Part shown: piece after piece, positions 56,948-58,170 of the stretch
Layout: each line of letters opens with the position of its first letter
How positions within the stretch are numbered: the first letter of the stretch is position 1
The notes under the pieces: generated by a model
What the model was told of the DNA's origin: nothing
What the model saw: only the letters and a program-made list of their open reading frames with translations
The model's database searches: none
Made by a program: the position numbers and the translations under genes
NCBI RefSeq assembly: GCF_006345805.1
Contig: NC_043006.1
Coordinates: 82,398,001 to 82,462,000 of the forward strand
Reading direction: 5' to 3'
Length of the DNA: 64,000 nucleotides
From: Octopus sinensis
Taxonomy: Eukaryota

Positions 56948-57667
56948 TAATTCCTCTATTTACATACTATCAAGGTCTCTTTCTTTCTTTTGTTGTCTTA
57001 CCATTTTTATCAATATATATATATTCACACACACGCATGCACACATGTATATATGTATGTATATTACTTGGTAGCTTCACTGGTGCTGATGCATGTAAAA
57101 AGCACCCAGTACACTCTGTATAGTGGTTAACATTAGGAAGGGCATCTAACAGTAGAAACCATGCTAAAGCACATAGTAGAGGTTGGCATAGTCCTTTGTC
57201 GCGCTAGCCCCTATCAAACCGTTCAACCCATGTTCACATGGAAATCAGATTTTAAATGGTGATAACAACAACGATGATGAGGATGATGACCACGATGTAT
57301 AATCATGCTATGTATGTGTATTCATGAACATCCATTCACATGTATTTAAATATAGACGGAAAGTCTGCTTTCAAGATCATGGAGTCAAAGGTTGTCATGG
57401 TTTTTAAAATGTTTAGGCTGAGAAAGATGTCAGTCCATGACAAGGTAAAGCACAAAAGGTGACATTGGGGCTAATTTTCACTGGAGTGTAATAGAGCAAC
57501 ATGAAATGATGTGCCTTGCTCAAGGACACAATGTGCTATTTGGCCAAAGAATTGAACCAATGGTATAATGATCAAGAGTTCAAATCCCCTCACCATTGAC
57601 CAATATTCCTTCATACATTTTATATATGCATTTAAATTGTTATATGTATTAGTGACAAAGGCAGTTT

Positions 57668-57698
57668 AGCAGAGTGGCGCAGTGGAAGCGTGCTGGGC
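57668..57698 (+). pseudogene. 5' half (nt 1-31) of initiator tRNA-Met, retroposed
   Basis: AGCAGAGTGGCGCAGTGGAAGCGTGCTGGGC matches from memory the invertebrate tRNA-iMet 5' end and stops at the anticodon loop. Confidence 0.85.
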
Positions 57699-58170
57699 TT
57701 TGATTCAACTAAAGGCGGTGCTGTAGCATGGCCGCAGTCAAATGACTGAAACAAGTAAAAGAGTAAAAGAATAAAGGCAGATTAATACCGAGAGGTAATA
57801 TTTATCCTCACTTAAATGTGGATGTTCTGTTAGAACAAACTATACTGTGGTGGAAACCACAAGAGAAACTCTCTTATAGGCTTTTGGTGCAGAAAGCATG
57901 TTTGTATGCTTATATCGCCAGCAGGGAGATAACTCCCCACCAACTCCAGCAGATCATAGGATTTCGATTTTCCTTGATCTCATTGGTGATAGACATATAT
58001 ATATATACAAAAAAATATATATATACAAAAATGTATATATATATACTTCCTGTATCTGTCCATTTGGCATTCCAAAGCCTGAAGGAGTCAGTAAAACCAA
58101 GGCCTGCAAAACTTGGAGTAGCGCAGAACCAAATCAAACTGTCTTAAATAATACACACACACACTCAAAT

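What the first reader, a model, noticed from the sequence alone, without database searches (positions are those of the whole stretch)
57657..57783. Chimeric retrocopy: initiator tRNA-Met 5' half fused to a SINE 3' tail, inside one TSD
Seen: 57668-57698 is a 31-nt tRNA-iMet 5' half starting at nt 1 and ending at the anticodon loop, followed directly by the last ~75 nt of the CORE-SINE (aaaggcggtgctgtagcatggccgcagtcaaatgactgaaacaagtaaaagagtaaaag), flanked by an 11-bp near-perfect duplication (aaaggcagttt 57657-57667 / aaaggcagatt 57773-57783). Known: LINE reverse transcriptases make chimeras by template switching, and 5' tRNA halves arise by anticodon-loop cleavage. Inference: one insertion event captured a germline tRNA half, which is either a fossil of tRNA-fragment biology or the seed of a new mini-SINE family (it has an A box but no B box).
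Basis: partly seen in the sequence, partly recalled or inferred. Interest (0 to 1): 0.75.

Follow-up and report, generated by a model that had tools for sequence, protein, structure and literature searches.

The report
tRNA half fused to SINE tail
A single-copy insertion joins the first 31 bases of the initiator tRNA to the last 74 bases of a short jumping repeat; it was likely made in one copying event and is a rare cut-short member of a large set of likely precursor-tRNA fusions in this genome, not a new repeat family.

Summary
Real and largely as described. 57668-57698 equals nt 1-31 of this genome's tRNA-iMet; 57699-57772 is a SINE 3' end, joined without microhomology. The insert splits an older repeat whose other copies carry the target once, so the duplication is real, but its firm core is 8-9 bp plus 2-3 extra T. 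Outgroup contigs leave the window where the insert begins; no contig bridged the tRNA|SINE junction. It is single-copy and has no B box: not a mini-SINE. It belongs to a genome-wide class: 71 of 100 examined hits are tRNAs with genomic trailers joined in sense to the same LINE/SINE tail; dispersed Asp copies carry only the leader and trailer of a gene array, so nuclear precursors were captured. This scan noted that class before on other DNA. Only two 5' halves were found, both iMet (ending nt 31 and about 39; enrichment only suggestive). Best reading: one retroposition in which reverse transcription passed from SINE RNA onto a 3'-shortened iMet RNA; RNA ligation or later deletion remain possible. 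Sense tRNA-half/L1 chimeras are already published for human. 'Germline mature half' is untested.

The parts
57648..57665 (+). Left end of an older palindromic, MITE-like repeat (host of the insertion)
   Evidence: Paralogous copies begin with the same letters and run straight on into the sequence found at 57781 onward; other copies show 95-114-nt inverted arms
57657..57665 (+). Left copy of the target-site duplication (8-9-bp core)
   Evidence: outgroup contigs match up to 57665
57666..57667 (+). Two extra T at the 5' joint: untemplated additions, end of a pre-tRNA leader, or part of an 11-bp duplication
   Evidence: Absent from paralogous empty sites; 7 of 72 iMet gene leaders end in TT
57668..57698 (+). 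tRNA-iMet nt 1-31 (acceptor 5' strand, D arm with A box, 5' strand of the anticodon stem, first loop base)
   Evidence: Identical to the genome's tRNA-Met(CAT) genes
57699..57772 (+). Last 74 nt of a tRNA-headed SINE: starts at the first loop base of a predicted hairpin, then two predicted tail hairpins and A-rich repeats
57773..57780 (+). Right copy of the target-site duplication (lacks the T seen in most paralogues)
57781..57985 (+). Remainder of the host MITE-like repeat
   Evidence: BLAST to paralogues at 67-88% identity; many contigs start at 57781

Best explanation
This is a single-copy chimeric insertion of tRNA-iMet nt 1-31 and a SINE 3' end inside a short target duplication, likely made in one target-primed reverse transcription in which a LINE enzyme copied 74 nt of SINE RNA and then likely jumped onto the free 3' end of a 3'-shortened initiator-tRNA RNA. 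Shown: identity of both parts, sharp junction, duplication of a target that is single in paralogues, single copy, and a genome-wide class of sense pre-tRNA/tail chimeras. Inferred: the enzyme bound the tail hairpins shared by SINE and LINE; the SINE template was itself a fragment beginning in a hairpin loop; the acceptor RNA ended in the anticodon loop (cleavage product or decay intermediate, more likely nuclear and possibly still carrying its leader); the cDNA end then paired with the target to finish the insertion. The product has an A box but no B box and is predicted to be dead on arrival.
For: Head exact and starting at nt 1. SINE from the first base after nt 31, no shared letter at the joint. 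Host repeat continues across the insert. Outgroup label E in two studies: contig matches 57531-57665 (7 differences in 135) and then leaves the window sequence; labels A, B, C carry flank plus tRNA nt 1-26 with 0 differences. Class: 71 of 100 examined hits are tRNAs joined in sense to the tail; duplications flank tRNA+tail as a unit (mean longest match 4.69 vs 3.92 +/- 0.20 shuffled, P=0.0002) and not the tail alone (3.66 vs 3.64, P=0.44); 0 of 20 fetched antisense hits are tRNAs; 5 dispersed Asp copies carry only the trailer (3 also the 5-nt leader) of an array on C5. These end in U-tracts, so end-to-end joining onto RNA 3' ends is routine here. Both breakpoints of the window fall at the first base of a predicted hairpin loop. 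A second iMet 5' piece (L230, to nt 36-39) joins the tail at the class's usual point.
Against: No contig bridged the tRNA|SINE junction, and the 6-7 outgroup letters after 57665 were not shown, so the empty site is inferred, not read; the 57665-57781 joint also appears in label C, so it can come from paralogues. The window's junction lies 16 nt before the tail motif whereas the 7 SINE-type class members join 2-4 nt before it. One array gene is cut at nt 41 by what looks like a genomic deletion (L373). The far-upstream control of the duplication test is not quite null (P=0.03). C31 could match by chance, and L230's end has a possible 3-nt overlap with LINE sequence. Sequence alone cannot separate a template jump from prior RNA ligation. 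The enzyme is not identified.
Confidence: 0.55

Rival explanations
1. RNA ligation first: an anticodon-loop-cleaved iMet half (2',3'-cyclic phosphate) was joined by RtcB to a loop-cleaved SINE RNA fragment (5'-OH), and the chimeric RNA was retroposed once.
For: Both breakpoints at predicted loop starts, no microhomology, no extra bases. RtcB makes U6/L1 chimeric RNA (PMC6789731, passages). In the human table the sense 5' halves are Tyr 1-37, Tyr 1-35 and Arg-AGA 1-38, isotypes recalled as intron-containing, which would fit ligation of spliced-off 5' exons (my inference).
Against: Most class members end in precursor U-tracts, recalled as 3'-OH ends and not RtcB substrates. Intron-containing Lys-TTT copies were captured unspliced (4 with a 19-nt insert) and no 5' exon chimera was among the 27 hits (weak, exact-match screen).
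Confidence: 0.22
2. A whole pre-tRNA-iMet/SINE chimera inserted first and a later genomic deletion removed the tRNA 3' half, its trailer and part of the SINE.
For: Whole precursors dominate the class; 4 whole iMet chimeras exist (L001, L370, L381; L039 with a longer LINE-like piece, by eye). A 3'-deleted iMet gene exists in an array (L373). The atypical SINE-side junction would be explained.
Against: No microhomology at the joint; the endpoint would hit the first anticodon-loop base and a SINE loop start by chance; L230 keeps the usual tail start, which a random deletion would rarely do.
Confidence: 0.13
3. Internal, homology-guided template switch from SINE RNA onto an intact (pre-)tRNA at the shared CTGGG, with small later changes.
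For: The SINE carries CTGGG 5 nt upstream of the junction and the tRNA carries it at nt 26-30.
Against: The expected product keeps five SINE letters between CTGGG and the junction; the window has a single C, which needs two further deletions or a deletion plus substitution.
Confidence: 0.07
4. A SINE piece landed in a resident tRNA gene, or the join is an assembly error, or this is the founder of a mini-SINE family.
For: The upstream letters resemble C24 iMet gene leaders; the junction has no contig support.
Against: The upstream letters are the end of the host repeat, which resumes after the tail; no tRNA 3' half follows; the left joint is in contigs of three organism labels; 1 of 81 heads has this junction.
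Confidence: 0.03

Closest known systems
Human tRNA/LINE-1 chimeric insertions (Law and Burns 2026, PMC13174262; abstract, passages, and 20 of 21 rows of the tRNA sheet of supplement 3 read)
   Same: tRNA 5' half starting at or near nt 1 and ending at nt 28-39, joined to a 5'-truncated retroelement in one TSD; single copies. Three of the 20 rows seen are sense 5' halves.
   Different: Most human cases are antisense (twin priming proposed); the three Met rows are antisense. Here the half is sense, iMet, the partner is a SINE tail, the machinery is not mammalian L1, and it sits among many whole pre-tRNA chimeras.
U6/L2, U6/Mon-1 (platypus) and U6/AnolisSINE2 chimeras (Doucet et al. 2015, PMC4476161; passages read)
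   Same: Pol III RNA in sense on a short 3' piece of a stringent LINE or its SINE; short TSDs (1-9 bp); head often 5'-truncated, as in the class found here.
   Different: Head is U6 ending at its natural 3' end; here a tRNA cut at the anticodon loop, or pre-tRNAs with leader, intron and trailer.
U6/L1 chimeras made by RtcB ligation (Moldovan et al. 2019, PMC6789731; passages read)
   Same: Sense join without microhomology.
   Different: Needs a cyclic-phosphate end; not tested for this RNA.
Tailless tRNA retropseudogenes (Schmitz 2004, cited in PMC4476161; Noll 2015, PMC5322556, search listing only)
   Same: 3'-truncated tRNA copies starting at the 5' end.
   Different: Those have no retroelement tail and prime directly on the target; this one carries a SINE tail.
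5' tRNA-iMet fragment priming copia and Ty5 (passages in PMC10275265 and PMC10886601)
   Same: Shows that iMet anticodon-arm fragments exist and meet reverse transcriptases.
   Different: There the fragment is a primer for an LTR element; here it is a template in a non-LTR insertion.

Membership tests
Small-RNA/LINE or SINE chimeric retrocopy | 5' part is a copy of a cellular small RNA | tested here: met
Small-RNA/LINE or SINE chimeric retrocopy | 3' part is a 5'-truncated retroelement with its natural tail, directly joined | tested here: met
Small-RNA/LINE or SINE chimeric retrocopy | One target-site duplication around both parts | tested here: met
   8-9-bp core; target single in 16 paralogous copies of the host repeat
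Small-RNA/LINE or SINE chimeric retrocopy | Both parts absent together at the orthologous site | tested here: inconclusive
   Outgroup contigs leave the window at 57665 in two studies, so the head is absent; letters beyond not shown and the right side not tied to the orthologue
Small-RNA/LINE or SINE chimeric retrocopy | Junction present in raw reads | tested here: inconclusive
   Only contigs available; none covered 57705-57722
SINE family (mini-SINE) | Multiple dispersed copies with the same junction | tested here: not met
   1 of 81 exact 18-nt heads (79 distinct contexts read); 1 locus among the 8 hits
SINE family (mini-SINE) | Complete Pol III promoter (A and B box) | tested here: not met
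   tRNA part ends at nt 31, before the B box; read from the sequence
Retrocopy of a mature 5' tRNA half | Starts at mature nt 1 and ends in the anticodon loop | tested here: inconclusive
   End at nt 30-31 met; start ambiguous because 2-3 extra T may be leader
Retrocopy of a mature 5' tRNA half | A 31-nt iMet half exists in germline RNA | not testable with these tools
   No RNA holder listed
CORE-SINE | Central CORE domain in the donor SINE | not tested
   PMC4758252 lists octopus OR2 as a CORE SINE; I did not compare this SINE with it
Tailless retropseudogene | No retroelement or poly(A) tail after the truncated RNA | tested here: not met
   74-nt SINE tail follows

The most novel reading that the evidence does not exclude
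Initiator tRNA is selectively cut in its anticodon arm in this animal's germline, and the 5' pieces are ligated or handed to retroelement RNA tails; the two iMet halves (ends at nt 31 and about 39) are then a genomic fossil record of an iMet-specific fragment pathway, distinct from the route that captures whole precursors of other tRNAs.
Probability: 0.2. Interest if true: 0.7.

Novelty: new variant of a known kind. Interest (0 to 1): 0.42.

Why it matters
The locus alone is a dead single copy. Its value is as a marker. First, it and L230 are the only 5' tRNA pieces found among some 75 tRNA/tail chimeras, and both are initiator tRNA, which gives a concrete, testable prediction for germline small-RNA data. 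Second, the class it belongs to shows the proposed first step of SINE birth (tRNA head plus LINE tail) occurring over and over, and suggests why it nearly always fails: whole precursors bring their own terminator T-run in front of the tail (59 of 71 with 3 or more T) and halves lose the B box. That explanation is inferred.

Tried and rejected
Rfam and ARAGORN on the window found no tRNA (the 150 Rfam rows shown were simple-repeat matches). Loose A-box screens (400 hits; 294 hits; 30 loci each fetched, only those read with flanks) were swamped by SINE and LINE variants and gave no count of halves. A BLAST census with the whole tRNA scored only 40 of 202 candidates. No RNA holder listed. Contigs of X8 did not cover the flank and that of X5 stopped at 57666; no conclusion drawn. 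A 9-of-10 match to the tRNA 3' half just right of the insert was rejected: it is part of the host repeat. A Pfam scan of a LINE C-terminal stretch gave no family and is not used. Of the 100 examined hits, 29 were dropped before the count (SINE heads, older SINE variants, a group of 7 near-identical loci, and a few probable but low-scoring tRNAs such as L199); 12 unlisted hits were not examined. Some reference tRNAs came from the chimeric loci themselves or from the same place under another id, so start positions are approximate: of 21 flagged as 5'-truncated at least 3 are reference artefacts. The antisense control uses a different anchor from the sense search; 99 of its 119 hits were not fetched, one listed string looks like a tRNA-Ser, and two iMet copies have an antisense SINE a little further downstream (L371, L384), so antisense insertion next to tRNAs does occur. 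Look-ups of earlier notes for an iMet half found nothing.

Full report
Observation. The first 30 nt of the head have 44 exact matches in the own genome and none in the reversed control. 43 of 44 continue as whole tRNAs; only the window breaks off. ARAGORN calls them tRNA-Met(CAT) with the anticodon at 33 in 18 of the 19 loci given, the window's locus being the exception. The match ends at nt 31, the first base of the anticodon loop. The following 74 nt are SINE from the first base: this variant has 214 exact hits, 30 of 30 fetched are SINE copies, and the window differs from their majority at 3 of 58 positions, within the 0-5 range of 29 of the 30. No letter is shared at the joint.

Target site. 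Both flanks belong to one older palindromic repeat. A pattern joining the two flanks hits 20 places against 2 in the control; 16 of 20 are copies of this repeat and carry the target once, 13 with a T where the window's right copy has none. The firm duplication is therefore 8-9 bp with 2-3 extra T at the 5' joint; the 11-bp reading costs one more mutation. Contigs of organism labels A, B and C (two studies; one may be the source of the assembly) carry the left flank and tRNA nt 1-26 without a difference. Contigs of label E, from two studies, match 57531-57665 with 7 differences and then leave the window for their last 6-7 letters, which were not shown: the head is absent there. A joint from 57665 to 57781 is seen in E but also in C, with short sides, so it may come from paralogues. 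No contig covered 57705-57722, so the tRNA|SINE junction has no independent support; such a hole proves nothing.

Copy number. An exact 18-nt head has 81 hits; 79 distinct contexts were read, 75 reach the tRNA 3' end, and 5 carry the tail within 200 nt: three whole (L001, L370, L381) and two 5' pieces, the window (nt 31) and L230 (nt 39, or 36 if three letters shared with a LINE variant are given to the LINE). One array gene stops at nt 41 with array flanks, a likely genomic deletion (L373). The window's junction is unique, and the head ends before the B box. It is not a SINE family.

The class. The SINE tail motif is shared with the 3' end of a LINE whose remnants lie upstream of it in several loci (RVT_1, E=3.4e-13). 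I read its motifs as CR1-group from recall; earlier notes of this scan tie the SINE tail to Tx1-like LINEs; neither was tested, so the enzyme is open. A search for a B box shortly before the tail gave 112 hits, control 0. Of the 100 listed and fetched, 71 are tRNAs of 18 reference types. About 18 lack part of the tRNA 5' end (21 flagged, at least 3 artefacts). Duplications flank tRNA and tail together (4.69 vs 3.92 +/- 0.20, P=0.0002), not the tail alone (3.66 vs 3.64, P=0.44); a far-upstream control gave 4.03 vs 3.72, P=0.03, so shared local composition explains part of the signal. In the opposite orientation 0 of 20 fetched hits (119 in all) are tRNAs, against 23 of 28 sense hits over the same chromosomes, with different anchors. 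A tRNA-Asp trailer occurs 32 times: 22 in a tandem array on C5 and 10 elsewhere, of which 5 run into the tail; these 5 keep only the array's trailer up to the T-run, and 3 keep its 5-nt leader. These are copies of primary transcripts. I reached this reading before looking at earlier notes; the scan had already described pre-tRNA, U6, 5S, U2 and 7SL fusions of this kind elsewhere in this genome.

What is special here. A screen for A boxes shortly before an exact tail gave 27 hits, of which one is a tRNA, L230. So both 5' pieces found are iMet: 2 halves and 4 whole for iMet against 0 halves and 28 screen-visible whole copies for others, P=0.027 with the window and 0.15 without it. That is a hint only. 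In the predicted folds the SINE part starts at the first loop base of a hairpin (donor SINE z=-3.1) and the tRNA part ends at the first loop base of the anticodon arm, which fits joining of two cut RNAs. The SINE-side junction is 16 nt before the tail motif, against 2-4 nt in the 7 SINE-type members. The target end matches an iMet gene leader over 6 nt (P=0.04 against random window positions, post hoc), so the head may have been a precursor whose leader guided the 5' joint; a mature half plus untemplated bases needs no extra change and is about as good.

Mechanism. Most likely one target-primed reverse transcription began on the SINE tail, ran off a SINE fragment and jumped to the 3' end of a shortened iMet RNA (0.55). 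Ligation before copying (0.22), later deletion of a whole chimera (0.13) and an internal switch at a shared five-letter word (0.07) remain. That the two parts arrived in one retroposition I put at about 0.9.

Comparison. Human tRNA/L1 chimeras number 21, mostly halves and mostly antisense (PMC13174262, passages); in the 20 of 21 table rows read, three are sense 5' halves (Tyr, Tyr, Arg) and the three Met rows are antisense. U6 chimeras with L2, Mon-1 and AnolisSINE2 have short TSDs and short tails like the class here (PMC4476161, passages). RtcB ligation is shown for U6/L1 (PMC6789731, passages). iMet fragments prime copia and Ty5 (PMC10275265, PMC10886601, passages). Searches listed no paper on tRNA chimeras with a cephalopod LINE or SINE tail; the library lacks most subscription papers, and the supplements of PMC13282606 (passages only) were not read.

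Verdict. A real, single-copy chimeric retrocopy; a new variant of a known kind; interest 0.42.

Noticed in passing
L193-L222, L250-L319 (hits): Genome-wide class of pre-tRNA (leader, intron, trailer kept) joined in sense to the last 50-60 nt of a LINE or SINE; 71 of 100 examined.
   Followed up: yes
L230:1494-1600 (G000:C9:47.88 Mb): Second tRNA-iMet 5' piece, to nt 36-39, joined to the LINE tail inside another repeat; the length is close to the copia primer fragment (recalled as 39 nt).
   Followed up: partly
L039 (G000:C29:12.09 Mb): Whole iMet copy with the trailer of gene L038, followed by what looks like a longer LINE coding piece: chimera with a junction far from the tail.
   Followed up: partly
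L196, L215, L222, L264, L266: 5 of 13 Glu-TTC chimeras start at nt 22-23 of the reference, a possible reverse-transcription stop or homology hotspot.
   Followed up: no
L311-L314, L316-L318 (C27, C28 and small contigs): Seven near-identical loci with a short B-box-bearing piece plus LINE tail and shared flanks; likely segmental copies of one chimera.
   Followed up: no
L225, L227, L235, L239, L240, L243, L244, L245: A recurrent AT-rich sequence followed by TA repeats and then a bare LINE or SINE tail; unidentified donor RNA or preferred target.
   Followed up: no
L082/L249, L229, L237, L241: Heads of other SINEs (about 28-52 nt) joined directly to SINE or LINE tails: internal deletions or further chimeras.
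   Followed up: no
L003, L013, L024, L040, L043, L044, L341, L380: Full-length SINE heads begin within about 10-80 nt after tRNA gene ends, in sense; either targeting of tRNA genes or pre-tRNA/full-SINE chimeras.
   Followed up: no
G000:C5:18.29-18.40 Mb (L342-L363): Tandem array of tRNA-Asp genes with a unit of about 158 nt; iMet clusters on C6 (22.1 Mb), C7 and C24.
   Followed up: partly
window:39750-39908: Long near-perfect inverted repeat (arms about 55 nt), probably another MITE.
   Followed up: no
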